From the NCBI GenBank assembly GCA_902577425.1, contig CACGZD010000001.1:638414-702413 (forward strand): a stretch of 64,000 nt of DNA. The letters run 5' to 3'. Positions 18,719-46,533 of the stretch are shown here, in pieces. The translations under genes and the position numbers were made by a program. Each line of letters starts with the position of its first letter. The stretch's first letter is position 1. This stretch comes from an uncultured Alphaproteobacteria bacterium (GTDB lineage: Bacteria > Pseudomonadota > Alphaproteobacteria > HIMB59 > GCA-002718135). The notes under the pieces are model-generated. The model did not search any database. It saw only the letters and a program-made list of their open reading frames with translations, and had not been told where the DNA came from.

Positions 18719-18729
18719 TTTTTTATATC

Positions 18730-18753: not shown

Positions 18754-18754
18754 C

Positions 18755-28705: not shown

Positions 28706-28795
28706 GGAGAGATGTGAGAGCGGTTTAATCAGCACGCTTGGAAAGCGTGTATAGTGGAAACACTATCGAGGGTTCGAATCCCTCTCTCTCCGCCA
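28706..28795 (+). tRNA. tRNA-Ser(GGA), intact, 90 nt
   Basis: Acceptor GGAGAGA/TCTCTCC, D stem TGA/TCA, anticodon arm CACGC-TTGGAAA-GCGTG, long variable arm TAGTG-GAAA-CACTA, T arm GAGGG-TTCGAAT-CCCTC, and encoded GCCA. Confidence 0.96.
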
Positions 28796-28839
28796 TAAAT
28801 TAGGATTTTCCTTTAACGATTTTTCAACAAAAAAGTGTT

Positions 28840-28861
28840 TCGACGCACATACGGCGCACTT
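28840..28861. repeat. Tandem 11-bp arm-type repeat, GGCG type
   Basis: TCGACGCACATACGGCGCACTT is 21/22 identical to 30760-81; the second CAC is 62 bp after the tRNA CCA. Confidence 0.85.
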
Positions 28862-28899
28862 ACGAGCCTATTTTTCATCTTAATCCCGTATCGGTATTG

Positions 28900-28918
28900 T
28901 GGTAGGATAATCGTGATG
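28900..28918 (+). promoter_or_regulatory. Putative extended -10 promoter with leaderless start
   Basis: TG-G-TAGGAT-N7-ATG, 18/19 identical to 43015-43033; no Shine-Dalgarno sequence. Confidence 0.5.
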
Positions 28919-29344
28919 AAAAAATTATTTTTTTTAATAGCTTTATTATTTTTGTTTTCTTCATACGCTAACGCTAAAGTGGTAAAACTTTTATGTGAGC
29001 CAAGAGAATACTACATTTATGATCACAATCAATCATCTGGAACTTATACTAAGCGTTTTGAACCTAATATTTTGGATTTAATTATTTCCATAAGTGAAAA
29101 AAAATTAACCATGTATTATGATGATGCAGAAGATAGTTTTAGTAGAACAAAAATTAATGCCGACCCAACATCATTTCTTATGAAATTTCAGAATGAAAAA
29201 TATGGAGTAGTGGTTGGCTTTCTTTTTCATAGAAAATCAGGAAGATTAAATAAGTTTAAAAGTGGAGGTCAATATGGAGGTGATAATAATATTTTTTCTG
29301 AGACATATTATAATTGTGAAAAATATTTAGAGCCCGTTTTTTAA
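28916..29344 (+). CDS. Secreted hypothetical protein
   Basis: ATG 28916 begins a clear signal peptide, MKKLFFLIALLFLFSSYANA. The track's upstream GTG start would run through the arm repeat. Confidence 0.7.
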   Translation: MKKLFFLIALLFLFSSYANAKVVKLLCEPREYYIYDHNQSSGTYTKRFEPNILDLIISISEKKLTMYYDDAEDSFSRTKINADPTSFLMKFQNEKYGVVVGFLFHRKSGRLNKFKSGGQYGGDNNIFSETYYNCEKYLEPVF

Positions 29345-29351
29345 AAATTAT

Positions 29352-29981
29352 ATGACCAATAAAGTTAAATTAAAATATGACTATATAATGAAATTAGAAT
29401 ACGTTGGTGAAGTCAAGGACGGCTTGCCCCATGGATATGGTACTTTCAATATATATGGAGAATTATCATTTAAAGAATTAAGTAAGACACAAAATTATAA
29501 AGAAACAAAGAAGGGTGAATACGAATATTTATCTCATCATAAATCTACCACACATTATCTTCAGGCACTTATAGAGGTGTCTTTAACAAAAAGTAAGCCA
29601 AAGGATTTTGATAAAGATTGTTTGGAAATTTCTATTAAAGGGGGCTTTAAAGAAGGTCTTTGGGAGGGACGTTTTTTTAGGATTGATTATGATTTTTTAA
29701 ATGGAAAAGAAAGTGACAATGAAGAAACTGAAGATTTTGAAGTATATTCTGAAGCATCGATTTTTGAAAATAATATTATGGTTGAAGGAAGAATAGATTT
29801 TGATGATGGTTATTATTTTGGTGAAGTCATATTGAATGAATCCTATAATAAAGATTTTGAAAAAGCCACTGGAGATCTTTATTTACCTCATGGAGAAGGT
29901 GATTACATTTATCATGATCCGAATAAAGGCAAATGGTTTAGAGGAATTTGGGAAAATGGAAAATTAAAAAAAACAAATTAA
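29352..29981 (+). CDS. Acidic protein with MORN-like repeats
   Basis: YVGEVKDGLPHGYGTF, YFGEV...PHGEGDY and WFRGIWENGK motifs. Confidence 0.65.
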   Translation: MTNKVKLKYDYIMKLEYVGEVKDGLPHGYGTFNIYGELSFKELSKTQNYKETKKGEYEYLSHHKSTTHYLQALIEVSLTKSKPKDFDKDCLEISIKGGFKEGLWEGRFFRIDYDFLNGKESDNEETEDFEVYSEASIFENNIMVEGRIDFDDGYYFGEVILNESYNKDFEKATGDLYLPHGEGDYIYHDPNKGKWFRGIWENGKLKKTN

Positions 29982-30542
29982 ATGACTAAAAAAGAAAAAA
30001 TAAAAACAAAGGATTGGACTTACAATGGTGAGGTTAAAAATGGGGAACCTCATGGAGATGGAATAATGAAATTTAAAAATGGAGAAAAGTTAGAGGGTTG
30101 TTGGAAAAATGGTAACCCTATAAAAGCATATAAATATATTCTTTATTCAAATGAAAAAAAAGATATGAGATATGAATACGAAGGTACGTTAGGTTGGGGA
30201 AAAGGCGGCGTATTAAATGGAAAAGGAATTTTTAAAATTATAGATAAAGTTTCAAAACCCAAAGGTTATACTTATCTAAAAGGAAACTTTGTAGGAGCCT
30301 TATTGGAAGGCAAGGGAATAAGAATTTTGTATTATGATAAAAACTATAGCCGAGCAATAAATCTTTACAAAGGTGAATTCAAGAACGGTTTTCAACATGG
30401 AAAAGGTATAGAGTGGTTTTACCCAAATAAATATTTCTCTGAAGGAATATTTAAAAATAATAAATTTAAAGGTTCAAAACAAAAACCACTTACAAAAAAG
30501 GTTTTTAAATTAATATTAGATGCAAATAATATTAACAAATAA
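29982..30542 (+). CDS. Basic MORN-repeat protein
   Basis: YNGEVKNGEPHGDGIM, LEGCWKNG, YEGT..NGKGIF and YKGEFKNGFQHGKGI motifs; TAAATG-coupled to the upstream gene. Confidence 0.75.
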   Translation: MTKKEKIKTKDWTYNGEVKNGEPHGDGIMKFKNGEKLEGCWKNGNPIKAYKYILYSNEKKDMRYEYEGTLGWGKGGVLNGKGIFKIIDKVSKPKGYTYLKGNFVGALLEGKGIRILYYDKNYSRAINLYKGEFKNGFQHGKGIEWFYPNKYFSEGIFKNNKFKGSKQKPLTKKVFKLILDANNINK

Positions 30543-30563
30543 CTAAAACAAATGAAATAATTC

Positions 30564-30643
30564 TTGTCTCACATATGTCTCACTCGCGCACCCGGTATTT
30601 ACATTTTTACGTTTAATTTTTCCTAGAAACCTTACACTTTGTA
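30564..30643. repeat. Right-end arm of Ser module 1: GTCT-type tandem repeat plus a conserved ~60-bp spacer
   Basis: TTGTCTCACATATGTCTCACTC followed by CACCCGGTATTTACATTTTTACGTTTAATTTTTCCTAGAAACC..., near-identical at 42761-42840 and 43798-43877. Confidence 0.85.
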
Positions 30644-30715
30644 TTTAATCAGCACGCTTGGAAAGCGTGTATAGTAGCAATACTATCGAGGGTTCGAATC
30701 CCTCTCTCTCCGCCA
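30644..30715 (+). pseudogene. 72-bp 3' copy of tRNA-Ser(GGA), from the D-loop to CCA
   Basis: Starts at TTTAATCAGC with no 5' acceptor strand. The variable arm is TAGTA-GCAA-TACTA, a compensatory variant. Confidence 0.92.
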
Positions 30716-30759
30716 TAAATTAAGATTTCTCTTTAAAGATTTTTTAACAAAAAAGTGTT

Positions 30760-30781
30760 TCGGCGCACATACGGCGCACTT
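30760..30781. repeat. Tandem 11-bp arm-type repeat, GGCG type
   Basis: TCGGCGCACATACGGCGCACTT, identical to 42761-82; the second CAC is 62 bp after CCA. Confidence 0.88.
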
Positions 30782-30825
30782 ACACATTCTTTTTCATCTT
30801 TGAAAAGTATGTTATTTATATTTTC

Positions 30826-30849
30826 TTAATTGGTTTTTTCGGGTGTCAT
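30826..30849 (-). pseudogene. 7-codon stub (MTPEKTN*) matching the start of the 20244-20990 gene
   Basis: 30828-30852 is 24/25 identical to 20969-20993, which encodes MTTEKTN. Confidence 0.5.
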
Positions 30850-30862
30850 TTATGGTTATCTT

Positions 30863-32185
30863 CTAGTTTTTAATTTTTTTTGCTGCTTTTGCATATTCTA
30901 TATTTCTTCCGCCATAACGTCTTAGACGTATGTTGCATTGTTCGGCATGACCAAGAAAACCTTCTAAATATGAAAGTCTAGAGCCATACTCACCTATTAA
31001 GGTCGCAGCTTCATCTGTTAAAACTTTTTGATATGTGTGTGTTTTGATAAATTTACCCACCCATAATCCGCCAGTATAACGTCCGGCTTTTTTAGTAGGT
31101 AGGGTATGGTTTGTTCCAATCACTTTGTCACCATTTGCAACATTGGTTCTTGGGCCAAGAAATAATGCACCGTAAGATTTCATATTTTCCAAAAACCAAT
31201 CATCTTTTTTTGTCATCACTTGCACATGTTCCGAGGCAATTTCATTTGCTTTATCAAGCATTTCTTCGTACGAATCACAAAGTATAACTGCACCGTAATC
31301 TCTCCAACTTATACTTGCTGTTTCTTTAGTTGGTAAAATTTGAAGAATTCTTTCAATCTCTAATAGAGTAGACTCTGCTAAATTTTTTGAATTTGTAATT
31401 AGAACTGCGGGTGAATTATATCCATGTTCAGCTTGCCCTAAAAGATCAGTAGCACATAATTCTCCATCTACAGTATTATCTGCAATAACCATTGTTTCCG
31501 TTGGGCCAGCAAATAAATCAATCCCCACTTTTCCAAATAATTGTCTTTTAGCTTCAGCAACATAAGCGTTACCAGGACCAACAAGCATATCAACTGGTTT
31601 TATTGTTTCAGTTCCTATTGCCATTGCACCTATACCTTGCATACCACCTAATACATATATCTCATGGGCTCCACCTAAATGCATAGCCGCAATTACTGCT
31701 GGATTAGGTTTGCTTTGAAATGGAGATGTAGTAGCTACTATTCTAGGGACATCTGCAACAGATGCTGTTACTACAGACATGTGTGCGGATGCTACCATAG
31801 GAAATTTTCCTGCAGGAACATAACAGCCAACTGATTGTACTGGAATATTTTTGTGACCTAATATCACTCCAGGTAGTGTTTCAACTTCTAATTCCTTTAA
31901 TGTTGCAAGTTGTGCTTCTGCAAATTGTCTTATTTGTTTTTGCGCAAATTTGATGTCCTCAATGTCATCTTCAGATACCTTACTAATTAAATTTTGAATC
32001 TCGGAATCTGTTAACCTAAAACTTGTTGGGGAATAATTATCAAATTTCTCTGACAATTCTCTAACATATTGGTCACCTTGTTGTTCTATTTTTTTTAATG
32101 TTTCTTCAACAATGTTTTTAACTTTATCATTCTCAGCTGATCGTTCTTGTTCAGCAATTCCTTTTTTCAAATATTGAATAGTCAT
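30863..32185 (-). CDS. HisD-family dehydrogenase, sulfopropanediol 3-dehydrogenase (HpsN)-like
   Basis: VGCYVPAGK, GPGNAYVAEAKR, AGPTE, DLLGQAEH, SEH and GTNHTLP motifs. The MTIQYLKKG N-terminus and GRYTGGLWVGKF are HpsN-clade-like; there are no his genes nearby. Confidence 0.75.
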   Translation of the reverse strand: MTIQYLKKGIAEQERSAENDKVKNIVEETLKKIEQQGDQYVRELSEKFDNYSPTSFRLTDSEIQNLISKVSEDDIEDIKFAQKQIRQFAEAQLATLKELEVETLPGVILGHKNIPVQSVGCYVPAGKFPMVASAHMSVVTASVADVPRIVATTSPFQSKPNPAVIAAMHLGGAHEIYVLGGMQGIGAMAIGTETIKPVDMLVGPGNAYVAEAKRQLFGKVGIDLFAGPTETMVIADNTVDGELCATDLLGQAEHGYNSPAVLITNSKNLAESTLLEIERILQILPTKETASISWRDYGAVILCDSYEEMLDKANEIASEHVQVMTKKDDWFLENMKSYGALFLGPRTNVANGDKVIGTNHTLPTKKAGRYTGGLWVGKFIKTHTYQKVLTDEAATLIGEYGSRLSYLEGFLGHAEQCNIRLRRYGGRNIEYAKAAKKIKN

Positions 32186-32188
32186 AAG

Positions 32189-33283
32189 TTATTTTTTATG
32201 TATTAAATCAAATATATCAACGTCTATCTGGTTAAGTATGTGTGCAATATCAATGGGCACCCAGTTTTCTCTTATTAATCCTTCGTGATGTAAATAAAAA
32301 TCCATAACTCTCATTGTTACTGATTTGCCTGTGCCTTCATATCCAAGCCATTCTTTTGAACCATGCTTACACTCTATGCTGTGCCAACCTGATGTCATCG
32401 AAAAATTGCCATCTGCAATTTCAATATAGTGTCCTATTTTCCAATAGTCTCTTTCCTTAAATGTTAGTCGAAATGGTAATTGATGATGATCAACATATCC
32501 TTTTAGTCCTCTTGCAGTACCTATACCACTAGGACCATACCACATCATTTTAGGATGCCAGAAATCTTTTTGTGCATGATTTAATAATTTCTCTCTTATA
32601 TATTCATAATTAGATCCAGGATCAGTTTCAGGTTTGATGTTTAAACTTCTTTGCATTGTTAAAGCTTGCTCCATAGATTTAATTGATAATTCATTATCCA
32701 TATTTTCAAATGTTGTACCATCACCGGTTATTGGTCCTGGCCACATACCTTCCGCGCCTAGAGATTTATTTACTGGCCAAAATCCAGCCTGACGAATAAA
32801 ATCTAAAGTATCAATTAAAATGTGAGATTGAATAATTTTATTATCTTTGATTTCATGCGCTTCACATATTCTAAGATGAATTGTTTTGGCATGAGCAGGA
32901 ACATTAAGCCATGGATTTACAAAAGTCCCTGTTAAATGAGCTACTGTAGAAACAAAAATTTTATCTTGAAAAGATCCTCCAAGAATTAGATTATCCCTTC
33001 TTTCAAGATCAGGAAATGCACTTATAAGTGGTTTCCATAATTTTTCTGTTATTTTAGAAATTCCTTTTAAGTCATTAAGTGGATGGAATGCTCTTATTAC
33101 CGCATCATCATGATACGCATCACTAATATTTTTATTAATATTTTCTAAATTGGATTCAGCTATATTTTTTAGAAGAATTCTAATTTTTTTTTTATTTGCT
33201 AAATTTATCTTTGGATCTAAATTAATGACTTCAGTACTTCCCTCTTTTTTTATTCCAGTATTAAAATTTTCAATGTTTGTCAT
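32189..33283 (-). CDS. Tandem SnoaL-like / ester cyclase (NTF2-fold) protein
   Basis: FPDLERRD, WYGPSGIGTARG and RVMDFY...IRENWV motifs; paralogous to 40892-41965. Confidence 0.75.
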   Translation of the reverse strand: MTNIENFNTGIKKEGSTEVINLDPKINLANKKKIRILLKNIAESNLENINKNISDAYHDDAVIRAFHPLNDLKGISKITEKLWKPLISAFPDLERRDNLILGGSFQDKIFVSTVAHLTGTFVNPWLNVPAHAKTIHLRICEAHEIKDNKIIQSHILIDTLDFIRQAGFWPVNKSLGAEGMWPGPITGDGTTFENMDNELSIKSMEQALTMQRSLNIKPETDPGSNYEYIREKLLNHAQKDFWHPKMMWYGPSGIGTARGLKGYVDHHQLPFRLTFKERDYWKIGHYIEIADGNFSMTSGWHSIECKHGSKEWLGYEGTGKSVTMRVMDFYLHHEGLIRENWVPIDIAHILNQIDVDIFDLIHKK

Positions 33284-33332
33284 AATTATTTAAATTTTAG
33301 TTACTCACAATTAGGCAAATTTTAAATTGATT

Positions 33333-33370
33333 TATTCAATATTTTGAATATTATTCATTAAAAATGAATA
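33333..33370. promoter_or_regulatory. Candidate operator array in a divergent promoter
   Basis: TATTCA/TGAATA half-sites at 33333, 33345, 33352 and 33365, including the palindrome TGAATA-T-TATTCA; a similar array lies at 37526-37563. Confidence 0.4.
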
Positions 33371-33389
33371 AAATATAATTTTTCCTAAA

Positions 33390-34358
33390 ATGTCAATAGA
33401 TATAGAAAAACGTCTAGCAAGATTTAATGATCTTATTCCCAGTAAGATCCCTTTTGTAGAAGGTAAGTTAAAAGGTCATCAGGATAGAAAAAATTATTCA
33501 ATTGTCGGACCAGGGGTAAGTGAAGATTCTAAGCAAAATGTAAAAATTGCTGAAGCTCACGGATTTAATATCGGGGCTGTAAGTGCTGCCCCAATGAATG
33601 GTTCAGGATTGCATAGTCATACAACTGCCGAGGTGTTTATTATACATGCTGGTTCATGGCGTTTTTATTGGGGAGTAAATGGCGAAGAGGGCGAAGTAAT
33701 TCTTAGCAAAGGAGATGTAGCATCATTTCCTACTAATATGTTTAGAGGATTTCAAAATGTTAGTGATGAAGAAGCCCTTATGTTTGTTGCGCTAGGTGAA
33801 GATGATCCAGGTGTTATTACGTGGACTCCAAGATTATTGAAAGAAGCAAATGAATCAGGAATGTTATTAATGGAAGATCGTTCATTGGTTGATCTTAATA
33901 AGCAAAAAGTGCCTGAGGGTAAGTTAGTAACAAAACCTCTTGAAGATAAGGAACTGGAAAGCTTTGACCATTATACCTCAGATGAAATTGAGAAATTTGT
34001 TATTCGTTATAATGATAATAAAAATTATGTTGATGATGAACATTATAATTCAAATTCAATAATTAATTATTTAGATTCATTTGAAATACATGGAAAAAAA
34101 ATTGAACCTAAAATTCCTCACAAAACAGGCTTTGGATTGACTCTATTAAAAGGTGTTTCAGCCCATATGCATGCGTATTCTATTAATTCATCTGAAGTTT
34201 ATAATTGTTTAAATGGCAAGTGGGAAGTCACATGTAATGATGAGAAAGTTATTCTCGAACCACGTGATAGTTTCTCTGCTCCAAAGAATTCTACAAGAAG
34301 TGTAAAACAGATAAGCAATGATGAGGGTAGTTTATTTATCGTTAGGCAATCAAATTAA
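33390..34358 (+). CDS. Bicupin-domain protein
   Basis: GSGLHSHTTAEVFIIHAGSWRF cupin motif 1, GDVASFPTNMFRGF motif 2, and a second degenerate cupin domain. Confidence 0.8.
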   Translation: MSIDIEKRLARFNDLIPSKIPFVEGKLKGHQDRKNYSIVGPGVSEDSKQNVKIAEAHGFNIGAVSAAPMNGSGLHSHTTAEVFIIHAGSWRFYWGVNGEEGEVILSKGDVASFPTNMFRGFQNVSDEEALMFVALGEDDPGVITWTPRLLKEANESGMLLMEDRSLVDLNKQKVPEGKLVTKPLEDKELESFDHYTSDEIEKFVIRYNDNKNYVDDEHYNSNSIINYLDSFEIHGKKIEPKIPHKTGFGLTLLKGVSAHMHAYSINSSEVYNCLNGKWEVTCNDEKVILEPRDSFSAPKNSTRSVKQISNDEGSLFIVRQSN

Positions 34359-34370
34359 TTTATTAAAAAT

Positions 34371-35342: not shown

Positions 35343-35355
35343 GGATAGATAAACA

Positions 35356-36486: not shown

Positions 36487-36499
36487 ATTGTTAATTTTT

Positions 36500-37501: not shown

Positions 37502-37525
37502 TTATGCCTTTATCCACCGAAATAT

Positions 37526-37563
37526 TATTCATTACATTGCATATTTATTCAAAACAATGCAAT
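37526..37563. promoter_or_regulatory. Candidate operator array between lacI and the SBP gene
   Basis: TATTCA (37526), TGCATA (37538), TATTCA (37546) and TGCAAT (37558); spacing parallels 33333-33370. Confidence 0.4.
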
Positions 37564-37641
37564 ATATTTATTATAAATATTTATAATATTAATTCTCTTA
37601 ATATAACAATTTATTTTAAGGGTAATTAATAAGGAGGAAAA

Positions 37642-38883
37642 ATGTTATTTAAAAAACTAATATTAGTTGGATTTATTTCCCTATTTTTCAGCTCATCTTT
37701 GTATGCAGCTGATTGTGGACCGAATGGGCAATCAATCCGAATTCTAGCAAGTGATTTTCCAGCAATTCACGCAATAGCAAATTCTGCTGAAAGTAATTGT
37801 GCAGGATCTGCTTCTGAATTCAATCGAAATCATACTACCGAAGCACGTCAAATAATGAATGCTGCTCAAACACCAAATCCAGCAGAGTATACTTCAGTTA
37901 TTGTAGCTAACTCTACCCTAGTTCAATTAATGAACGATGGACTTGTTAGACCATTAGATGATTTAGTTGAAAAATATGGTGGTCACTTAAAATCTAACCA
38001 ACTGATAACTATTGATGGAAAAATAATGGCAATAGCGTTTATGGCAAATTCTCAGCACATGTATTATAGAACAGATATTTTAGAAAAATCTGGGGTTGAT
38101 GGAATACCAGCAACTTATGATGAAGTAATATCTGCTGCTGAAAAGATACGTGCAGCTGGTATCATGGAGCATCCACTTGTAATGAATCTCAAAGTCGGAT
38201 GGAATGTTGGTGAAGTATTTAACACTATATACCTAGCACATGGTGGAGAATTCTTTAAGCCTGGTAGTGCTGAAGCATCTATTAATAATGCCAAAGGTGT
38301 TGCTGCTCTAGAAACAATGAAAGCTCTTGTAGAGTATGCTCACCCTGATCATTTAACGCAGGCATCTGATGATACGCAAGGATTATGGGAAGCTGGTCAA
38401 GCGGCAATTGGCTTTATGTGGGGTTCTCGTGGAGGAGTTATACTAGATAATGAAGGTTCTTCAGCTGAAGTGACTTCAAATACTGTTTTATCTGCAGCTC
38501 CAACTGTTACTGGTGGCTCAATACCAGGAGCAACTCTATGGTGGGATGGAATAACTATAGCTACTAACGTGTCTGACAGTGAAGCAGAAGCAACGTTTGC
38601 AGCACTTGTAAGTGGTATGACTTCAGAAATGGTTGCTGCTAATAATGATGATGCAATTTGGTTAATTGATGGTTTTAAACCTGGTCCAGCTGCAGCAGGA
38701 GTTTCTGCAACTGCTCAAGGCGGTGCTAAATCTTACCCGATGTTTGCTCAAATGGGATTATTGCACAATGCATTAGGTGCAGAGCTAGTTGATTTTTTAA
38801 AGGGATCTGAGAGCGCTGAACAAGCACTTAGTGATGTAGAGGCTGTTTACGAAACAGCTGCTAAAGACGCAGGTTATCTGTAG
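37642..38883 (+). CDS. Carbohydrate ABC transporter substrate-binding protein (family 1)
   Basis: Signal peptide, YYRTDILEKSG.D.IPATYDE motif, and AAGGAGG RBS. Confidence 0.88.
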   Translation: MLFKKLILVGFISLFFSSSLYAADCGPNGQSIRILASDFPAIHAIANSAESNCAGSASEFNRNHTTEARQIMNAAQTPNPAEYTSVIVANSTLVQLMNDGLVRPLDDLVEKYGGHLKSNQLITIDGKIMAIAFMANSQHMYYRTDILEKSGVDGIPATYDEVISAAEKIRAAGIMEHPLVMNLKVGWNVGEVFNTIYLAHGGEFFKPGSAEASINNAKGVAALETMKALVEYAHPDHLTQASDDTQGLWEAGQAAIGFMWGSRGGVILDNEGSSAEVTSNTVLSAAPTVTGGSIPGATLWWDGITIATNVSDSEAEATFAALVSGMTSEMVAANNDDAIWLIDGFKPGPAAAGVSATAQGGAKSYPMFAQMGLLHNALGAELVDFLKGSESAEQALSDVEAVYETAAKDAGYL

Positions 38884-38905
38884 TCAATATAAATAAATCA
38901 GTAAA

Positions 38906-38933
38906 AAGGGGTTTTCAAATTTGAAAACCCCTT
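38906..38933 (+). terminator. Perfect 28-bp palindrome after the SBP gene (hairpin)
   Basis: AAGGGGTTTTCAAATTTGAAAACCCCTT equals its own reverse complement. Confidence 0.7.
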
Positions 38934-38963
38934 GTATCTTTCTATGTAATTTAAAATCGCATA

Positions 38964-39998
38964 ATGAAGCACAGCACATTCTTATTATTTTCTCTTCCTT
39001 CATTAAGTGTAATGTTTTTATTTATTGCAATACCTATAGTTTCTGTTTTTATTCAATCTCTGCATATTGAGCATAAACAAGTAATAATTGTTACAGAAAA
39101 TTGTGATCCTTTTGGATGTGAGACAACAACAGCTGTGGATACTGAAGCTTCCGCAAAGTTAAAAGAAAAAGCACCTCTTGGTAAATTTAATGGATTTAAA
39201 ACATATTCAAACAGAATGCATTTTGCATTTGATGAAGTAGGAGAAGCTTGGAAGAGCTCGGATAGTTTTACAGTTTTTACTAAAAAATTATATAATTACC
39301 CCCTATATAGAGCGCTCAGTTTCACTCTTACTTACACCTTCGTAGTTACTCCTTTTGTCTTATTTCTTGGTTTTTTAGTTGCCGTTGGAGTTAATAATCT
39401 TCCAAAGATGTTTAAAGGTCCAACAATTTTTGCATCTCTTCTTCCAATGATAGTTACACCTCTTGTTGGTTCATTGATACTTTTCTGGATGGTTGACGGT
39501 GATGGTGTGATTGGGGCTACACTCCAAAAAATATTTAATGATAATTCTCTTAGCTTGAAAGCATCACCTGTGCTTACCTGGATTATGTTGATGGTATACG
39601 GTATTTGGCATTTGATGCCTTTTAGTTTTATTGTTTTTTATGCAGGTCTTCAAACGGTTCCTCAAGAAACAATAGAGGCGGCAACAATAGATGGCGCATC
39701 AAAATTTCAAAGAATACGCCATGTTGTTATTCCTCATTTAATGCCACTTGCTATTTTCATCACTTTAATACTTTTGATGGATAATTTTAGAGTTTTTGAA
39801 CCAATCATAGGTTTTAGAGCAGAAGCGCACGCCACCTCAATATCGTGGTTAATATGGAATCATTTGCGAGAAAGTGCTTACCCTCTCTATAACGCCGCAG
39901 GTGCTACATCTATGGTTACTATTTTTGGTGTAGCAATTTTACTCTTGCCCGTACTAATTCGAACATGGCGAGATTTTAAAGAAAAAAATAAAGGTTAG
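38964..39998 (+). CDS. Carbohydrate ABC transporter permease (MalF-like)
   Basis: EAATIDGASKFQRIRHV EAA motif; multiple TM segments. Confidence 0.9.
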   Translation: MKHSTFLLFSLPSLSVMFLFIAIPIVSVFIQSLHIEHKQVIIVTENCDPFGCETTTAVDTEASAKLKEKAPLGKFNGFKTYSNRMHFAFDEVGEAWKSSDSFTVFTKKLYNYPLYRALSFTLTYTFVVTPFVLFLGFLVAVGVNNLPKMFKGPTIFASLLPMIVTPLVGSLILFWMVDGDGVIGATLQKIFNDNSLSLKASPVLTWIMLMVYGIWHLMPFSFIVFYAGLQTVPQETIEAATIDGASKFQRIRHVVIPHLMPLAIFITLILLMDNFRVFEPIIGFRAEAHATSISWLIWNHLRESAYPLYNAAGATSMVTIFGVAILLLPVLIRTWRDFKEKNKG

Positions 39999-40004
39999 GA
40001 ATTT

Positions 40005-40886
40005 GTGAATACAAAAATTGAAAATAAATTAACCCCAGTTCGTATTATTGCTTTTATATTTGTGGCTCTGTGGTTGGTTATTGCTATGTTTCCTTTTATT
40101 TGGACATTGTGGGGATCTTTCAAAGTACAAGCTGATTTTTTTTCAAAAGCTGATTGGTTAAATGCAATATTTGGCTTTCATACTGAAAAACAAACAGGCG
40201 GTTTTTTTACTATGGATGGATATTATGGCTCTTGGATTGAAGAAGAATTTTGGCGTGCCGTTATTAATACAAGCATAGTAGTATTTTTTACAGTTTTAAT
40301 TTCTCTTACTTTTGGAACTTTAGGTGGTTATGCTCTTGCAAGGTCTACTTATCGCTACGCCTTCTGGATTTTAATGGCAGGTCTTATCTTTCGTGCGATG
40401 CCTCATATGACTTTGATTTCAGGATATCTTCAACCTTTTTTTGCATGGAATGTTTGGGGAATTTTGCCTACAACAATAATTGTGCTTGTTGCAATTAATC
40501 AGCCTTTTACTCTGTGGATGCTACATTCATTTTTTTTAAACATACCAAAAGATTTAGATGAAAGCGCTATGTGCGATGGTTGTAATAGATTTCAAGCATT
40601 TAGATATGTGATCATTCCTATAATGTGGCCAGGGGTAATCACTACTGGATTATTTAGCTTCCTTCTTGCTTACAATGATTTTACAGTTACATCCATGTTG
40701 CTTTCAGATGAAAATGAAACAATGATTCCAGCAATTGCAAGTTTTCTAGGTACTGTCCAAGAAGAAGGTAAAGTAATGTATGCTGTAGCAGCCGTTGTTT
40801 CAGCAACTGCTCCATTATTCTTTTTTGTACTGTTTTTTCAAAGACAGATTGTTAGTGGATTAACAGCTGGAGCAGTAAAAGGTTAA
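40005..40886 (+). CDS. Carbohydrate ABC transporter permease (MalG-like)
   Basis: IPKDLDESAMCDGC EAA motif and FQRQIVSGLTAGAVKG C-terminus; GTG start. Confidence 0.9.
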   Translation: MNTKIENKLTPVRIIAFIFVALWLVIAMFPFIWTLWGSFKVQADFFSKADWLNAIFGFHTEKQTGGFFTMDGYYGSWIEEEFWRAVINTSIVVFFTVLISLTFGTLGGYALARSTYRYAFWILMAGLIFRAMPHMTLISGYLQPFFAWNVWGILPTTIIVLVAINQPFTLWMLHSFFLNIPKDLDESAMCDGCNRFQAFRYVIIPIMWPGVITTGLFSFLLAYNDFTVTSMLLSDENETMIPAIASFLGTVQEEGKVMYAVAAVVSATAPLFFFVLFFQRQIVSGLTAGAVKG

Positions 40887-40891
40887 AAGTA

Positions 40892-41965
40892 ATGAAATCA
40901 GAGCAATTAAAAAAATACTTTGAAGATTATCAAATAGCTACTCAAAATTTTAATAAAAATTCAATAAATAATTCTCTAACTAAATACTTCTCAGAACATT
41001 CTGTGTTTCAATTCTGTTATCCCTTTGGAACGTTTAATGGATTAGATAATTTTTTATCTAATTGTATCAATCCTCTTTTAGAAAGTATTCCAGATCTTGA
41101 AAGAAGAGATATGATTGTTATGGCAGGCACAACACCTGAAGATAAACACTGGGTAGGTACTATGGGTAATTATATGGGAACATTTTTAAAATCATTTTTA
41201 GATATTCCACCAACTGGTAATTTAGTTCATATGCGTTATCATGAGTTTTTCCAAATCGAAAATAATCAGATTATAGAAATGCAATCAATATGGGATCTAC
41301 CTGAACTGATGATCCAGGCCAATGCATGGCCAATGAGTCCTCAGCTAGGATCTTTTTTATGTACACCATCTCCGATGACCGGAGACGGTTTAAAAATAAA
41401 AGGCGATGGATCAAAAAATTTTGATCTTGTGATTAATATGCTTCAAGACATGGTTTTACACCCTAGTAATCCAGATCCACAAGTTATGAATTTAGATAAG
41501 TATTGGCACCCCAGATTTAATTGGTATGGACCAGCTGGAATTGGAACTGGAAGAGGTATAGCAGGATTTCGCCATTGGCATCAAATACCCTTCTTACGTG
41601 CAATGCCGGATAGAAAGGGAGGTTCATCAAATGATAGCTTAAAAAATGAGGGATTGAAGGATATGCAAACTCATTGGATATATGAAGGAGATTATGTCTG
41701 TGAAACTGGTTGGCCAAATATGCGATCTACAATATCACAAGATGGATGGATGGGTATTGCTCCTTCAAACCAGATTATAGAAATGCGGAGTTTAGATTTT
41801 TGGAGAGTTGAAAATAATCTTATAAGGGAGAATTGGGTTTTAGTAGATCTTCTGGATGTTTATCAGCAAATTGGCGTTAATGTTTTTGATAGAATAAAAG
41901 AATTTAACAAAGCAAGAAATGTTGGTGATATTAACATTTCTCAAGGACTTGATTTAATTAAATAA
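40892..41965 (+). CDS. Tandem SnoaL-like / ester cyclase protein
   Basis: IPDLERRD, WYGPAGIGTGRG, HQIPF and RSLDFWR...IRENWV motifs; paralog of 32189-33283. Confidence 0.75.
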   Translation: MKSEQLKKYFEDYQIATQNFNKNSINNSLTKYFSEHSVFQFCYPFGTFNGLDNFLSNCINPLLESIPDLERRDMIVMAGTTPEDKHWVGTMGNYMGTFLKSFLDIPPTGNLVHMRYHEFFQIENNQIIEMQSIWDLPELMIQANAWPMSPQLGSFLCTPSPMTGDGLKIKGDGSKNFDLVINMLQDMVLHPSNPDPQVMNLDKYWHPRFNWYGPAGIGTGRGIAGFRHWHQIPFLRAMPDRKGGSSNDSLKNEGLKDMQTHWIYEGDYVCETGWPNMRSTISQDGWMGIAPSNQIIEMRSLDFWRVENNLIRENWVLVDLLDVYQQIGVNVFDRIKEFNKARNVGDINISQGLDLIK

Positions 41966-41982
41966 ATATTGATATAGAAGAA

Positions 41983-42750
41983 ATGTATTTACAAAAATTT
42001 GAAGTCAAAAACAAAACTGCATTAGTAACGGGAGCAGGAAAAGGTTTGGGAAAAGCATGTGCTATTGCTTTGGCTGAGGCAGGAGCCAATCTCATTATAT
42101 TAAGTCGTACCAAAACTGACTTAACAAAAGTTGAAAAACAAATAATAAAATTAAATAGAAAATGTCGATCAATCGTATGTGATGTAACAAATTATGAAGA
42201 TGTAAAAAAAACTTTTTCCTCCATATCTAAGTTAGATATTCTTGTTAATAATGCTGGAACTAATAGACCTGAATATTTTACAAAAATTAAAAAAAAAGAT
42301 ATGGATGATGTTGTTGATTTGAATATTAAAGCCGCATTTCATATTGCACAATTGGCTTCAAAAATAATGCTAAGATCCAAAAATCGAAAGAAAGTTGGGG
42401 CTTCCATAATAAATATGTCTTCTCAATTAGGAAAAGTAGGAGCTCCACGCCGAAGTGTTTACAATATGACGAAATTTGGAATTGAAGGATTAACCAAAGG
42501 AATGGCTGTGGATTTAGCTAAACATAATATTCGTGTCAATTCAGTTTGTCCCACATTTGTTAAAACGCCAATGGTTGAAAAGTTTTTTAAAGATAAAGAA
42601 TTTATGAAATCTGTATTAAAAAACATTCCTTTAGGCAGAATAGGTTCAGAAAGCGATATTGCTACAGCTGTAGTGTATCTAGCCTCCAATGCATCATCAA
42701 TGATTACTGGCTCATCATTAGTAATAGATGGTGGTTGGACAGCAAAATAA
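41983..42750 (+). CDS. SDR oxidoreductase, HpsO-like
   Basis: TGAGKGLG, NNAGTNRP, YNMTK, CPTFVKTP and DGGWTA motifs. Confidence 0.8.
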   Translation: MYLQKFEVKNKTALVTGAGKGLGKACAIALAEAGANLIILSRTKTDLTKVEKQIIKLNRKCRSIVCDVTNYEDVKKTFSSISKLDILVNNAGTNRPEYFTKIKKKDMDDVVDLNIKAAFHIAQLASKIMLRSKNRKKVGASIINMSSQLGKVGAPRRSVYNMTKFGIEGLTKGMAVDLAKHNIRVNSVCPTFVKTPMVEKFFKDKEFMKSVLKNIPLGRIGSESDIATAVVYLASNASSMITGSSLVIDGGWTAK

Positions 42751-42760
42751 TTAAAATTTC

Positions 42761-42840
42761 TCGGCGCACATACGGCGCACTTAGACACCCGGTATTTACA
42801 TTTTCACGTTTAATTTTTCCTAGAAACTCTAGACATTGTA
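42761..42840. repeat. Right-end arm of Ser module 2 (GGCG tandem repeat plus conserved spacer)
   Basis: The 22-bp motif starts 10 bp after the SDR stop; the second CAC is 63 bp before the tRNA fragment. Confidence 0.88.
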
Positions 42841-42912
42841 TTTAATCAGCACGCTTGGAAAGCGTGTATAGTGGCAACACTATCGAGGGTTCGAATCCCT
42901 CTCTCTCCGCCA
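42841..42912 (+). pseudogene. 72-bp 3' copy of tRNA-Ser(GGA)
   Basis: TTTAATCAGC...CCGCCA; variable arm TAGTG-GCAA-CACTA. Confidence 0.92.
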
Positions 42913-42956
42913 TAAATTAAAATTTTTCTATAACGATATTTCAATAAATATGTGTT

Positions 42957-42978
42957 TTGTCTCACATAGGTCTCACTC
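42957..42978. repeat. Tandem 11-bp arm-type repeat, GTCT type
   Basis: TTGTCTCACATAGGTCTCACTC is 21/22 identical to 30564-85; the second CAC is 62 bp after CCA. Confidence 0.85.
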
Positions 42979-43014
42979 ACGAGCCTATTTTTGATCAACA
43001 TTTCTTTTCATTAA

Positions 43015-43033
43015 TGGTAGGATAATTGTGATG
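43015..43033 (+). promoter_or_regulatory. Putative extended -10 promoter with leaderless start
   Basis: TG-G-TAGGAT-N7-ATG, matching 28900-28918. Confidence 0.5.
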
Positions 43034-43792
43034 TCAAAATTACTCCTCTTTTTTGTATTAGTTTTTTATTCATTTTCAAATTCATATGCTAAACCACCCT
43101 ATTGGGGTACAATATTTGATTTTCCTGATATTATTAATTCTAACGATCCAACAACATTTCAAGAATTAATTTATGTTGGTCAAGATCATCGTGAAATGTT
43201 TGATCGAAGAAAAGGAGGGCGTTGGATAACAAAAAAAGTTTTTTTGTTTAATGCAATTTACGAAGATAGATCAATTGAAATTCAAGTTAATCCCGAGTTT
43301 AATAATTATGAAAATGCTCTTGAAGAAGCTCTTACATATTCTAAAGTAATTGGACGGCTTCCAAATTTTTTACTTACTAATGTTAAAACCATTTGGATTC
43401 ACAAAGGAAATAATGACTATGGGGGTGGCAATCAAAACCTACTTATTCATATCGGGAGGAGCGTAGAATATATTTCAAAAAAAATCCTTGAAGAGACATT
43501 TATTCATGAAGCTGGTCATACTTCGCTTGATTGGGATTGGGGAGGTGTAATTAATAAATCTCAATGGTACAAAGCTGCAAAAAAAGATAAAGAATATATT
43601 TCTGAATACGCAAAACAATATCCAAAAAGTGAAGATGTTGCTGAAAGTATAGTAGCATGGATTGCTGTGCGGTATCGCTTAGATAGAATTTCTAATGGAA
43701 ATGCAGAAATAATTTTAAAAACTATACCTAATCGATTAAAATTCTTTGATGAACAAAATTTTGATATGTATCCATTGGTGCCTCGTGAATAA
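43031..43792 (+). CDS. Secreted zinc-metallopeptidase-like protein
   Basis: Signal peptide MSKLLLFFVLVFYSFSNSYA, HEAGH (HExxH) motif, and downstream SEYA...EDVAES. Confidence 0.65.
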   Translation: MSKLLLFFVLVFYSFSNSYAKPPYWGTIFDFPDIINSNDPTTFQELIYVGQDHREMFDRRKGGRWITKKVFLFNAIYEDRSIEIQVNPEFNNYENALEEALTYSKVIGRLPNFLLTNVKTIWIHKGNNDYGGGNQNLLIHIGRSVEYISKKILEETFIHEAGHTSLDWDWGGVINKSQWYKAAKKDKEYISEYAKQYPKSEDVAESIVAWIAVRYRLDRISNGNAEIILKTIPNRLKFFDEQNFDMYPLVPRE

Positions 43793-43797
43793 TTTTA

Positions 43798-43877
43798 TGG
43801 TAGCACATAGGTTGCACTAGCGCACCCTGTATTTACATTTTCATGTTTAATTTTTCCTAGAAACCCTACACTTTGTT
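43798..43877. repeat. Right-end arm of Ser module 3
   Basis: TGGTAGCACATAGGTTGCACTA begins 5 bp after the stop codon; the second CAC is 63 bp before the tRNA fragment. Confidence 0.82.
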
Positions 43878-43949
43878 TTTAATCAGCACGCTTGGAAAGC
43901 GTGTATAGTGGCAACACTATCGAGGGTTCGAATCCCTCTCTCTCCACCA
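43878..43949 (+). pseudogene. 72-bp 3' copy of tRNA-Ser(GGA), terminal copy
   Basis: Ends TCTCC-A-CCA (discriminator G to A) and is not followed by an arm repeat. Confidence 0.92.
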
Positions 43950-44035
43950 TAAATTAAATATTTAAAAATAAATATTCACTAACAATAAATTGAAAAAATA
44001 AAATAAAAATATAAAGTTTATTTTAGTAAATTAAT

Positions 44036-46492: not shown

Positions 46493-46533
46493 AATATTTT
46501 TTGATAATAATATATAGAAGGTGACTAGATAGT

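What the first reader, a model, noticed from the sequence alone, without database searches (positions are those of the whole stretch)
28796..43819. Cassette ends are mosaic, with arm types switching at the repeat
Seen: arm types run GGCG [module 1] GTCT | GGCG [module 2] GGCG | GTCT [module 3] GTAG/GTTG, so only module 2 has matched ends (22/22). The tRNA-to-arm segment of module 1 (28796-28861) is nearly identical to that of module 2 (30716-30781). Immediately after the arm, module 1 switches to ACGAGCCTATTTTT and the promoter block shared with module 3 (42979 onward), and its right arm is 21/22 identical to the left arm of module 3. Inference: module 1 is a recombinant with a breakpoint at the arm repeat. 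Ends and interiors are being shuffled, which could retarget cargo between integrase specificities.
Basis: partly seen in the sequence, partly recalled or inferred. Interest (0 to 1): 0.68.

Follow-up and report, generated by a model that had tools for sequence, protein, structure and literature searches.

The report
Mosaic integrase-less cassettes at tRNA-Ser
Three gene cassettes with no integrase of their own sit in tandem behind a serine tRNA gene of a SAR11-type marine bacterium; each is bounded by paired 11-base repeats that look like docking sites for a lambda-like integrase family found elsewhere in the ocean, and two of the three have had an end swapped by recombination.

Summary
Six 22-nt "arms" (two 11-nt units, GNNNCACATAN GNNNCACNNNN) flank three cassettes inserted at tRNA-Ser(GGA). 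All six are on the + strand at fixed distances from four copies of the tRNA 3' part.

In 13 complete cassettes from other SAR11-type genomes and metagenomes, the left and right arms normally match (0 of 100000 shuffles did as well). Window modules 1 and 3 break that rule.

The same arm types sit 10-12 nt upstream of the ribosome-binding site of a marine family of tyrosine integrases. These have a lambda-Int-like three-domain fold, and some lie on 7-9 kb primase-helicase elements. One such element (L252) shows a full attP: arms, tRNA core, arm, int. I therefore read the arms as arm-type integrase sites, with the crossover in the anticodon loop.

The window holds no integrase, so its cassettes are non-autonomous.

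Module 3's cargo carries GTTG-type arms in 11 of 11 other contigs. Only here is its left arm, plus 14 nt, of GTCT type. Module 1's arm equals L174 (22/22) and its leader equals L156 (52/53).

Recombination is therefore shown, but breakpoints also occur away from the arms. Retargeting between integrase specificities remains untested; arm versus N-domain covariation is only moderate.

The parts
28706..28795 (+). Intact tRNA-Ser(GGA), the chromosomal attachment site. The anticodon stem-loop CACGC-TTGGAAA-GCGTG at 28733-28749 is the inferred core (crossover) site.
   Evidence: ARAGORN. Core inferred from hybrid tRNAs in L003 and L256, and from the variant P-side copies in L006 and L184.
28796..28841 (+). 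46-nt spacer between the tRNA end and the left arm of module 1. It contains a second direct repeat, GATTTT(C/T)C ... GATTTTTC. Equivalent spacers lie at 30716-30761 and 42913-42958.
   Evidence: Alignments. The distance from the tRNA motif to the L arm is 73-76 nt in 25 of 25 junctions.
28842..28863 (+). Left arm of module 1, GACGCACATAC GGCGCACTTAC (GACG/GGCG type). It does not match this module's right arm.
   Evidence: It is 22/22 identical to the L174 arm.
28864..28915 (+). Leader of module 1 (GAGCCTATTTTTCATC...GTGGTAGGATAATCGTG). It is near-identical to the leader of a GTCT-type cassette in L156.
   Evidence: 52/53 identity to L156, falling off on both sides. Not flagged as a promoter.
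28916..30542 (+). Module 1 cargo: a secreted 142-aa protein and two MORN-repeat proteins (28916-29344, 29352-29981, 29982-30542).
   Evidence: ORFs; Pfam MORN. ORF1 is 95% identical in nucleotides to L269, ORF2 81% to L005, and the start of ORF3 84% to L174.
30566..30587 (+). Right arm of module 1, GTCTCACATAT GTCTCACTCGC (GTCT type).
   Evidence: With flanks it is 23/23 identical to the arm upstream of integrase P0001 in L254.
30588..30643 (+). 56-nt P-side block between the right arm and the tRNA fragment. It recurs at 42785-42840 and 43822-43877.
   Evidence: Pattern found 3 times in the window against 0 expected. In other cassette families the block is unrelated in sequence but the same length.
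30644..30715 (+). tRNA-Ser 3' fragment, from D-loop to CCA (junction 2).
30762..30783 (+). Left arm of module 2, GGCGCACATAC GGCGCACTTAC.
30784..42762 (.). Module 2 cargo, 12 kb. It encodes an HpsN-like sulfopropanediol/histidinol dehydrogenase, three SnoaL-like proteins, a cupin, a MetE-like protein, a LacI regulator, a sugar ABC transporter and an SDR.
   Evidence: ORFs; Pfam; cluster names. The same right end occurs in L001, L005, L006 and L007, next to a different neighbouring cassette in L001, L005 and L006 (L007 ends just after the tRNA fragment).
42763..42784 (+). Right arm of module 2, GGCGCACATAC GGCGCACTTAG. It matches the module's left arm.
42841..42912 (+). tRNA-Ser 3' fragment (junction 3).
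42959..42980 (+). Left arm of module 3, GTCTCACATAG GTCTCACTCAC (GTCT type). It is foreign to this cargo.
   Evidence: The arm plus the following 12 nt is 34/34 identical to L156. The cargo has GTTG-type left arms in 11 of 11 other contigs.
42981..43030 (+). Leader of module 3. The recombination breakpoint lies between about 42992 and 43000.
   Evidence: Pairwise alignments to L156 and L241.
43031..43792 (+). Module 3 cargo: a 253-aa secreted protein with an HExxH motif and no Pfam family.
   Evidence: Its 90%-identity cluster has 273 members, mostly on contigs of 1-1.7 kb.
43800..43821 (+). Right arm of module 3, GTAGCACATAG GTTGCACTAGC. This is the native arm type for this cargo.
   Evidence: The same arm occurs in L241 and in most of L259-L268.
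43878..43949 (+). Distal tRNA-Ser 3' fragment, read as the displaced original 3' half. It has one change (CCACCA), no spacer or arm after it, and is followed by AT-rich native flank.

Best explanation
The region is a tandem array of three non-autonomous integrative cassettes at tRNA-Ser(GGA) of a SAR11-type alphaproteobacterium.

**Cassette structure.** Each cassette was once a circle whose attP read: right arm, about 56 nt, tRNA 3' part (core in the anticodon stem-loop), about 46 nt, left arm.

**Integration.** A lambda-like tyrosine integrase, supplied in trans, would bind the core with its central and catalytic domains and the two-unit arms with its small N-terminal domain. It would exchange strands in the anticodon loop. 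This rebuilds a working tRNA on the left and pushes the old 3' half to the right. Repeated integrations give the array.

**Arm types.** Arms come in many sequence types and are normally the same at both ends of a cassette. This is because both ends descend from, and presumably must be read by, one type of integrase.

**Origin of the mismatches.** The mismatched ends of modules 1 and 3 arose later, by ordinary homologous or microhomology recombination (patchy gene conversion) between the similar end modules (tRNA fragment, spacer, arm, leader) of different cassettes. They did not arise by integrase action at the arms.

**Shown:** the anatomy; the matched-arm rule; the fixed spacing; the recombinant structure of modules 1 and 3; the existence of integrases with the same arms next to their genes.

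**Inferred:** that the arms are bound by the integrase N-domain; that the crossover lies in the anticodon loop; that cassettes are mobilised in trans; the mechanism of the swaps.
For: **Anatomy and statistics.**

**The same architecture elsewhere.** It occurs in 4 SAR11-type single-cell genomes, one MAG and many marine metagenome contigs.

**Matched arms.** The mean L-versus-R distance at the 6 variable positions is 1.23 in 13 cassettes, against 3.82 when shuffled; 0 of 100000 shuffles did as well. Window M1 and M3 each score 4.

**Fixed spacing.** It holds within 1-3 nt: R arm to tRNA motif 121-122 nt in 18 of 18 junctions, and motif to L arm 73-76 nt in 25 of 25. This holds even where the intervening DNA is unrelated.

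**Crossover within the tRNA.**
- The distal tRNA fragment has native flank and no arm.
- L003 and L256 have a host-type 5' half (GCGCCCGC) joined to an element-type 3' strand (GCGTG), giving a mismatched anticodon stem.

**Integrases.**
- A family of at least 154 proteins carries PF00589.
- Two-unit arms lie 10-12 nt before the ribosome-binding site in 15 loci. Types include GTCT (L149, L254), GCCA, GTCA and GATCA, which also occur on cassettes or at cassette-like R-arm positions.
- L252 shows a complete attP, with matching arms on both sides of a functional tRNA-Ser 3' half, then int, plus a DUF5906 primase-helicase.
- The AF2 model has an N-terminal three-strand sheet plus helix (residues 2-45, pLDDT about 90). 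Full-length lambda Int aligns over 367-379 columns.
- Tandem repeats of about 11 nt, 40-60 nt after tRNA-Ser, are common in unrelated integrated elements.

**Recombination.**
Against: - No integrase is present anywhere in the 64-kb window. Mobility of these particular cassettes is therefore unproven, and they may be fossils.
- No integrase with GGCG, GTTG or GCTA arms was found.
- Binding of the N-domain to the arms is inferred from position and fold only. The Pfam arm-binding model scores below threshold (E 0.084).
- Arm versus hairpin covariation is moderate and confounded by physical linkage and relatedness. L149 and L254 share an arm but differ at 8 of 14 hairpin residues.
- No circular cassette or clean tRNA-to-tRNA excision joint was seen in metagenome contigs.
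- In most integrase-bearing copies the tRNA 3' half next to int is degenerate. Their polarity therefore differs from that of the window cassettes.
Confidence: 0.7

Rival explanations
1. The arms themselves are the recombination (crossover) sites, as attC sites are in integrons. Cassettes move by recombination between arms, so arm switching at cassette borders is the direct footprint of the recombinase.
For: - Arms bound every cassette.
- One M1 breakpoint lies exactly at the arm edge.
- If M2 were removed, the junction would carry two GTCT arms.
Against: - Each insertion duplicates 72 nt of tRNA, and the last copy abuts native flank. This is what a crossover inside the tRNA predicts, not one at the arm.
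- The arms are direct repeats without the inverted symmetry of core sites or attC hairpins.
- In L252 the arms flank the tRNA core on both sides within a single attP.
- M3's breakpoint lies about 15 nt beyond the arm, and M1 has other breakpoints.
Confidence: 0.06
2. The arms are operator sites for a transcription regulator. Direct 7-nt repeats with an 11-nt period resemble the sites of OmpR/PhoB-type regulators. They would control the cassette's first gene or the integrase gene and have no role in recombination.
For: - The left arm lies just upstream of the leader and first ORF in many cassettes.
- It lies immediately upstream of the integrase ribosome-binding site.
- The 7+4+7 layout (sequence) is, from general knowledge, like a Pho box.
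Against: - An equivalent arm sits at the 3' end of each cassette, where there is nothing to regulate.
- It matches the left arm and keeps a fixed distance to the tRNA core.
- Module 2's first gene is on the opposite strand.
- More than ten arm variants coexist at one locus.
- A dual role, as an arm site that also autoregulates int, remains possible.
Confidence: 0.08
3. The arms are bound not by the integrase but by an accessory protein, such as an excisionase/recombination directionality factor or a host bending protein.
For: - Xis-type proteins bind tandem direct repeats (general knowledge).
- The hairpin-arm correlation is weak in places (L149 versus L254).
- A second conserved repeat, GATTTTTC twice, exists in the spacer. 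More than one protein is therefore likely to bind there.
Against: - The arms occur on both sides of the core, as Int arm sites do.
- The integrases have an extra N-terminal sheet-helix domain that needs a target.
- Arms and the N-terminal coding region lie within about 100 nt of each other and covary across clades with different tRNA targets (GCAAC arms with the Q hairpin in L231, L251, L257 and L258).
- No excisionase gene was identified in the loci examined (no dedicated Xis/RDF search was run).
Confidence: 0.1
4. The mismatched arms are not recombinant at all. They reflect point-mutation drift of short repeats in old, immobile remnants.
For: - The distal tRNA copy is decaying.
- No integrase is nearby.
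- Some arms elsewhere are imperfect (L005b, L162, L229).
Against: - The foreign segments are long exact matches to other cassettes: 22/22, 52/53 and 34/34.
- These are flanked by sharply lower identity.
- The cargo of M3 is about 97% identical to copies that carry a different arm.
Confidence: 0.03

Closest known systems
Lambda-type attP/attL/attR with arm-type sites (heterobivalent tyrosine integrases: lambda, HP1, P2/P4-like, Tn916/Tn1549)
   Same: - Three-domain integrase fold.
- Core site with inverted repeats around a 7-nt overlap, here the anticodon stem-loop.
- Short direct-repeat sites on both sides of the core at fixed distances.
- An arm next to the int start, which could also autoregulate.
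   Different: - The cassettes in the window carry no integrase, excisionase or replication genes.
- The arm sequence is hypervariable within one integrase family and one tRNA target.
- Binding has not been demonstrated.
Tycheposons and their arrays in Prochlorococcus genomic islands (Hackl et al., bioRxiv 10.1101/2020.12.28.424599)
   Same: - Streamlined marine bacterium.
- Tyrosine-recombinase elements that integrate at tRNA genes.
- Partial tRNA copies between neighbouring elements.
- Newer elements pushing older ones into the island.
- Nutrient-uptake cargo, and satellite-like relatives with primase/helicase genes.
   Different: - Different host and, as far as tested, a different integrase set. 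Relatedness to tycheposon recombinases was not tested.
- That preprint has no word beginning 'arm'.
- Here most units lack any integrase yet keep a complete two-armed att architecture.
Additive flexible genomic islands with repeated tRNA fragments (Rodriguez-Valera/Lopez-Perez concept; noted for SAR11 in PMC11796062 and for Methylophilaceae in PMC10872708)
   Same: - tRNA-anchored island built from cassettes separated by partial copies of the tRNA.
- Cassette content differs between co-occurring strains.
   Different: - Those descriptions stop at the tRNA repeat.
- The arms, their matching, the leader module and the link to a specific integrase family are not described in the papers I could search.
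CIMEs (cis-mobilisable elements) and accretion with integrative elements in Streptococcus (from my own knowledge; not checked in the library)
   Same: - Units flanked by attL/attR but lacking recombination and transfer genes.
- They sit in tandem with integrase-bearing relatives at a tRNA-type site. L231, L198 and L156 show integrase-bearing and integrase-less units side by side.
   Different: - CIMEs derive from conjugative elements.
- Here the autonomous relatives are small primase-helicase elements.
- No accretion-mobilisation has been shown.
VEIMEs, virion-encapsidated integrative mobile elements of Pelagibacter (Eppley et al., PMC9618062)
   Same: The integrase-bearing relatives (L248-L250, L252) are 7-9 kb, carry a tyrosine integrase plus a DUF5906 primase-helicase, and occur in SAR11-type contexts.
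   Different: - Membership of a VEIME module was not tested.
- The window cassettes have none of the satellite genes.
Integron cassette arrays
   Same: - Promoter-poor, mostly single-function cassettes stacked at one site.
- Mobilised by a recombinase encoded outside the cassette.
   Different: - No IntI, attI or attC hairpin.
- The recombination site is a tRNA core with flanking direct-repeat arms.
- Each insertion duplicates 72 nt of tRNA.

Membership tests
Arm-site-dependent (lambda-type) tyrosine integrase system | Tyrosine recombinase catalytic domain (R..HxxR..Y) | tested here: met
   Met in related loci only. PF00589 E 1e-20 to 1e-26. Invariant R228, H308, R311 and Y343 in 50 sequences.
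Arm-site-dependent (lambda-type) tyrosine integrase system | Integrase encoded by the element itself | tested here: not met
   No integrase in any cassette or anywhere in the 64-kb window (Pfam; phmmer).
Arm-site-dependent (lambda-type) tyrosine integrase system | Separate N-terminal arm-binding domain (three-stranded sheet plus helix) | tested here: met
   The AF2 model of P0001 has strands 2-7, 10-17 and 20-26 and helix 29-45, with pLDDT about 90. Full-length lambda Int 1z1g/1z1b aligns over 367-379 columns. Pfam Arm-DNA-bind_4 reaches only E 0.084.
Arm-site-dependent (lambda-type) tyrosine integrase system | Arm-type repeats on both sides of a core site at fixed distances | tested here: met
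   121-122 nt in 18 of 18 junctions and 73-76 nt in 25 of 25. L252 attP has arms on both sides.
Arm-site-dependent (lambda-type) tyrosine integrase system | Strand exchange in a short overlap between inverted core-binding sites | tested here: inconclusive
   CACGC-TTGGAAA-GCGTG fits. The host-type to element-type switch lies within the anticodon stem-loop in L003, L256, L006 and L184. No products were sequenced.
Arm-site-dependent (lambda-type) tyrosine integrase system | Integrase physically binds the arm repeats | not testable with these tools
   Needs EMSA or footprinting.
Tycheposon | Integration at a tRNA, leaving partial tRNA copies, with tandem arrays inside an island | tested here: met
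   Description of the family.
Tycheposon | Integrase belongs to the tycheposon recombinase clades | not tested
Integron | IntI integrase, attI, and attC sites with imperfect inverted repeats | tested here: not met
   No integrase in the window. The arms are direct repeats. The tRNA is duplicated at each insertion.
Additive flexible genomic island | tRNA-anchored, with cassettes separated by partial tRNA repeats and content variable between strains | tested here: met
   Cassette depths differ up to 100-fold within a metagenome. Family description.
CIME-like non-autonomous element | Flanked by functional-looking att sites, with no recombinase or transfer genes | tested here: met
CIME-like non-autonomous element | Mobilised by a related integrase-bearing element | not testable with these tools
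   Only co-occurrence was seen (L231, L198, L156).
VEIME / phage satellite | Integrase plus primase-helicase on a 5-10 kb element | tested here: not met
   Not met by the window cassettes. Met by the relatives L248-L250 and L252.

The most novel reading that the evidence does not exclude
The variable triplets in the arms act as address labels. Many elements share the same tRNA core and pile up in tandem. The arm type, read by a matching integrase N-domain whose coding region lies within about 100 nt of the arm, would decide which attL/attR pair is synapsed. Each integrase would then move only its own element, plus any integrase-less cassettes that carry the same label. Swapping an arm by recombination would hand a cargo from one integrase, carried by a satellite-like element, to another. 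If so, SAR11, which is thought to lack mobile elements, would have a modular, trans-mobilised cassette system.
Probability: 0.25. Interest if true: 0.8.

Novelty: new variant of a known kind. Interest (0 to 1): 0.55.

Why it matters
SAR11 is the most abundant bacterial group in the ocean. Its flexible genes sit in islands whose mode of acquisition is unclear, because the genomes carry almost no recognisable mobile elements.

This locus shows a concrete architecture for that acquisition:
- small cassettes, from 0.4 kb in related loci (L005) to 12 kb in the window, with a complete two-armed att site but no integrase;
- stacked at tRNA-Ser;
- sharing arm sequences with a widespread marine integrase family carried on satellite-like elements.

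This makes trans-mobilisation testable with a handful of cloned parts. It also gives a sequence signature (arm, about 56 nt, tRNA fragment, about 46 nt, arm) for cataloguing cassettes in genomes and long-read metagenomes.

The mosaic ends show that cargo, leader and arm are reassorted in nature. This matters only if arm types confer integrase specificity, which is still open.

Tried and rejected
- **Genome-collection scan.** The 20-mer from the 56-nt block was too strict: 7 hits, 2 by chance.
- **Viral-contig scans.** Scans for the block and for the tRNA 5' part found nothing. The tRNA 3' end alone hit 120 unrelated elements. These were useful only as a general illustration of tandem repeats after tRNA-Ser.
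- **Integrase motif searches.** A strict regular-expression search for integrase motifs found nothing. A looser one hit L247 by luck, in its N-terminal part; phmmer with that protein then found the family.
- **Metagenome contigs laid on the array.** These gave depth differences between cassettes but only short, unreliable joints. There was no clean excision or circle junction.
- **Promoter scan.** It did not support the 'promoter block' reading of the shared leader.
- **Hairpin prediction.** I predicted that integrases with an L149-like hairpin (P0028) would have GTCT arms. They have GGCGTCAC. P0001, 94% identical to L149 but with a different hairpin, keeps GTCT arms. Simple one-to-one hairpin-arm rules therefore fail.
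- **Reconstruction of events.** I tried to derive the window's arm order from a single event, such as unequal crossover, insertion of M2, or a leader-to-leader deletion. No single event fits, and the order of events cannot be recovered from these data.
- **Arms as crossover sites.** Rejected (see rivals).

Full report
**1. What is there**

The window has about 30% G+C. It carries one intact tRNA-Ser(GGA) at 28706-28795, directly after a sugar ABC permease gene.

The 3' 72 nt of this tRNA (D-loop to CCA) recur at 30644-30715, 42841-42912 and 43878-43949. They divide the region into three modules:
- M1 (28864-30565): a secreted protein and two MORN proteins.
- M2 (30784-42762): 12 kb with an HpsN-like dehydrogenase, SnoaL-like proteins, a LacI regulator, a sugar ABC transporter and an SDR.
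- M3 (42981-43799): one secreted HExxH protein.

Every internal junction has the same layout:
- a 22-nt right arm;
- a 56-nt block;
- the tRNA fragment;
- a 46-nt spacer;
- a 22-nt left arm.

The last junction lacks the spacer and left arm. It carries a mutated CCA end and runs into AT-rich native flank.

An arm is two 11-nt units, GNNNCACATAN GNNNCACNNNN. The motif occurs six times in 64 kb, all on the + strand and only at these places, against 0.87 expected.

**2. The same design elsewhere, and a rule**

A DNA pattern from the 56-nt block found the same architecture in four single-cell genomes labelled uncultured Alphaproteobacteria (AG- series) and one MAG.

Taken with the composition, the gene content and the literature on SAR11 islands, I infer a SAR11/Pelagibacter-type host.

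Many further arm types appear: GGCA, GCTA, GCCA, GTCA, GTTG, GATC and GCGC/GCTC.
- In 13 cassettes with both ends on one contig, the two arms match. The mean distance is 1.23 at the six variable positions, against 3.82 after shuffling partners; 0 of 100000 shuffles did as well.
- The window's M2 scores 0. M1 and M3 each score 4, the typical between-cassette value.
- The distances are almost invariant: right arm to tRNA motif 121-122 nt in 18 of 18 junctions, and motif to left arm 73-76 nt in 25 of 25. This holds even in cassette families whose 56-nt block and spacer are unrelated in sequence.

A length constraint without a sequence constraint points to a protein-DNA architecture.

**3. The integrases**

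No cassette and no ORF in the window encodes a recombinase. Several metagenome contigs do: L247, L192, L193, L149, L231, L198 and L156.

A database search with the L149 protein gave at least 154 relatives with PF00589.

In all 15 loci where I could read the upstream DNA, a two-unit arm lies 10-12 nt before the ribosome-binding site of int.
- Several of these arm types also occur on cassettes or at cassette-like R-arm positions: GTCT in L149 and L254, GCCA in L192, GTCA in L193, GATCA in L198.
- The L254 arm is 23/23 identical, with flanks, to the window's M1 right arm.

L252 shows a whole attP on one contig:
- three right-arm units (CGCTACAC, CGCGACTT, CGCGACAC);
- about 125 nt;
- the anticodon loop and a functional tRNA-Ser 3' half;
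- 47 nt;
- the left arm (CGCGACAC twice);
- int;
- a DUF5906 primase-helicase.

A related clade does the same at tRNA-Gln(TTG), on 7.4-kb contigs that also carry DUF5906.

The protein has a central SAM-like domain and a catalytic domain. An AlphaFold model built from 50 sequences (pLDDT 85.7) adds an N-terminal three-stranded sheet plus helix, residues 2-45. Foldseek aligns full-length lambda integrase over 367-379 columns, and Tn1549 integrase is the top hit.

This is the heterobivalent, arm-site-dependent design.

**4. Where the crossover is**

Three observations place the exchange inside the tRNA:
- the tRNA duplication;
- the native flank after the last copy;
- the position of the arms on both sides of the tRNA part in L252.

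In L003 and L256 the host 5' half is of another type (GAAGGCGCCCGC). It is joined to the element-type 3' strand (GCGTG), which leaves a mismatched anticodon stem. In L006 and L184 the P-side copy differs up to the loop (TAATCGTAACAC|TTGGAAAGCGTG).

The switch therefore lies in or next to TTGGAAA, between the inverted CACGC/GCGTG. This is the sublocation used by many tRNA-targeting integrases (general knowledge). It is an inference; no recombination products were seen.

**5. The mosaic**

Left ends of a large family of cassettes align as spacer, arm and a leader of about 52 nt ending in GGTA(G/A)GATAAT(C/T)GTGATG.

Pairwise alignments show the following:
- M1 equals L174 through spacer and arm (60/68, arm 22/22) up to CACTTAC.
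- M1 then equals L156, whose own arm is GTCT, for 52 of 53 nt up to just past the start codon. After that it diverges.
- M3 equals L156 for 34 of 34 nt (arm plus ACGAGCCTATTTTT). It then follows L241, at about 97% in the ORF.

L241 and ten further contigs with the same cargo (L259-L268) all have GTTG-type left arms and G(T/C)AG/GTTG right arms. The window copy is therefore the one exception among 12.

M1's relatives are more scrambled:
- L269/L270 share only ORF1 (95% nucleotide identity). They have a GGCA left arm, another leader and a GTCG/GACG right arm.
- ORF2 is shared with L005 and ORF3 with L174.
- Partly mismatched arms also occur in L005b and L229.

Recombination among cassette ends is thus real and frequent. 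It is not confined to the arm. The arm's outer edge is the end of the att module common to all cassettes, which is where homologous exchanges would naturally resolve. I could not derive the window's arrangement from a single event.

**6. Does arm type follow the integrase?**

Arm type does not follow the catalytic-domain clade. Integrases 77-79% identical to L149 have GGCAAC arms, and a tRNA-Gln clade member has GTGCAAC.

Against the 14-residue N-terminal hairpin there is a moderate correlation. Mantel r is 0.38, with 7 of 20000 permutations as high; without one near-duplicate, r is 0.34 with 80 of 20000. The correlation is carried mainly by four integrases with R(V/A/T)Q(K/R)SF and GCAAC arms.

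The counter-example is L149 versus L254: 94% identical overall, the same GTCT arm, but 8 of 14 hairpin residues different.

Arm and N-terminal codons lie within about 100 nt of each other, so linkage alone could produce some of this signal.

**7. Mechanism: shown and inferred**

Shown:
- the array;
- the arms and their statistics;
- the matched-arm rule;
- the fixed spacing;
- the integrase family with identical arm types and a lambda-like fold;
- the recombinant ends.

Inferred:
- arms are arm-type sites bound by the N-domain;
- the crossover is in the anticodon loop;
- the cassettes are mobilised in trans by integrases carried on small primase-helicase elements;
- the mismatches come from homologous or microhomology exchange.

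Metagenome depths show the cassettes vary independently of the flanking core. In run X1, M2 has a depth of about 200 against 68 for the neighbouring permease gene, while M1 has 2-40. M2's right end abuts different neighbours in three other genomes (L001, L005, L006); L007 carries the same right end but stops just after the tRNA fragment.

**8. Comparison with what is known**

- In the preprint version I read, tycheposons are described in Prochlorococcus, with partial tRNAs between tandem elements; that text mentions neither SAR11 nor Pelagibacter.
- Additive islands with tRNA repeats are a known concept.
- Pelagibacter hosts integrase/primase satellites, the VEIMEs.
- A 2026 preprint on 135 complete Pelagibacter genomes discusses tRNA-bounded hypervariable regions. 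It has none of the partial-tRNA, att-site or Ser-tRNA terms I searched for.

I found no description of the two-armed att architecture on integrase-less cassettes, of the arm-type diversity, or of the arm/leader reassortment.

I therefore class this as a new variant of a known kind, not as a new kind.

**9. Verdict**

The finding is genuine and the recombinant reading is correct. It should be widened, because there are several breakpoints and the cargo is patchwork too. It should also be toned down, because there is no evidence that the arm is the recombination point or that specificity is retargeted.

The more interesting result lies underneath: a trans-dependent cassette system at SAR11 tRNA genes, tied to a specific integrase family.

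Noticed in passing
window 30784-42762: Module 2 is a self-contained catabolic and uptake cassette. It has an HpsN-like sulfopropanediol 3-dehydrogenase (named so in 90%-identity cluster members), three SnoaL-like proteins, a cupin, a MetE-like protein, a LacI regulator, a sugar ABC transporter and an SDR. In two metagenomes its depth is 2-3 times that of the flanking core gene.
   Followed up: partly
window 28804-28828, 30724-30748, 42921-42945: The 46-nt spacer holds a second conserved direct repeat, GATTTT(T/C)C ... GATTTTTC, with a period of about 14 nt. It is conserved in most left ends of this cassette family and may be a site for an accessory protein such as an excisionase or a bending factor.
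   Followed up: no
window 43031-43792: A 253-aa secreted protein with FIHEAGH (an HExxH metalloprotease-like motif) and no Pfam family. Its 90%-identity cluster has 273 members. Most of the members listed are on contigs of 1-1.7 kb, as expected if assemblies break at the flanking repeats.
   Followed up: partly
window 17558-19957: A 386-aa ORF with a C-terminal HNH endonuclease domain and a convergent 400-aa ORF with no Pfam match lie between lepA and a block of oxidoreductase genes. This may be another small insertion. The arm-like hit at 17476 looks like chance.
   Followed up: no
L192, L193, L149, L251, L253, L254, L256, L257 (upstream of int); L003, L130, L144, L156, L174, L239 (upstream of the full tRNA): Most integrase-bearing copies have the opposite polarity to the window cassettes. 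Next to int lies a tRNA 5' half joined to a degenerate 3' half. An R-arm-like repeat plus a block of about 80 nt precedes a full tRNA in many loci. This suggests these elements bring the promoter and 5' half and rebuild the live tRNA at their far end.
   Followed up: partly
L253 8750-8800: The integrase gene has a stop codon where relatives have the conserved Trp (MASIQKFRTK*KV, against KWKV in P0017). This indicates a decaying copy or a sequencing error.
   Followed up: no
L248 6560-7707, L249, L250, L255, L258: A sister clade of the integrase (about 50% identity) targets tRNA-Gln(TTG) with the same layout: tRNA half, spacer, two-unit arm, int. In L248-L250 it sits on an element of about 7.4 kb with a DUF5906 primase-helicase. 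L249 and L250 look like permuted copies of the free element.
   Followed up: partly
L247 1-10335: An integrase with a divergent arm (ACGTCGTG twice) heads an island of more than 9 kb. The island carries a GntR regulator, a PHP-like protein and an oligopeptide ABC transporter. Here tRNA similarity stops within the T-arm, not at the anticodon loop.
   Followed up: no
window 44000-46500: Directly after the last tRNA fragment the G+C content falls to 19-26%. A small sugar-nucleotide and glycosyltransferase cluster follows. L269 has a similar cluster on the other side of its tRNA-Ser.
   Followed up: no
L005 2211-2537, L189 477-942: Some 'cassettes' between matched arms are only about 300-450 nt, with no ORF of 100 aa or more in L005 (-style ORF scan not run for L189). 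These may be empty shells or remnants that keep both arms.
   Followed up: no
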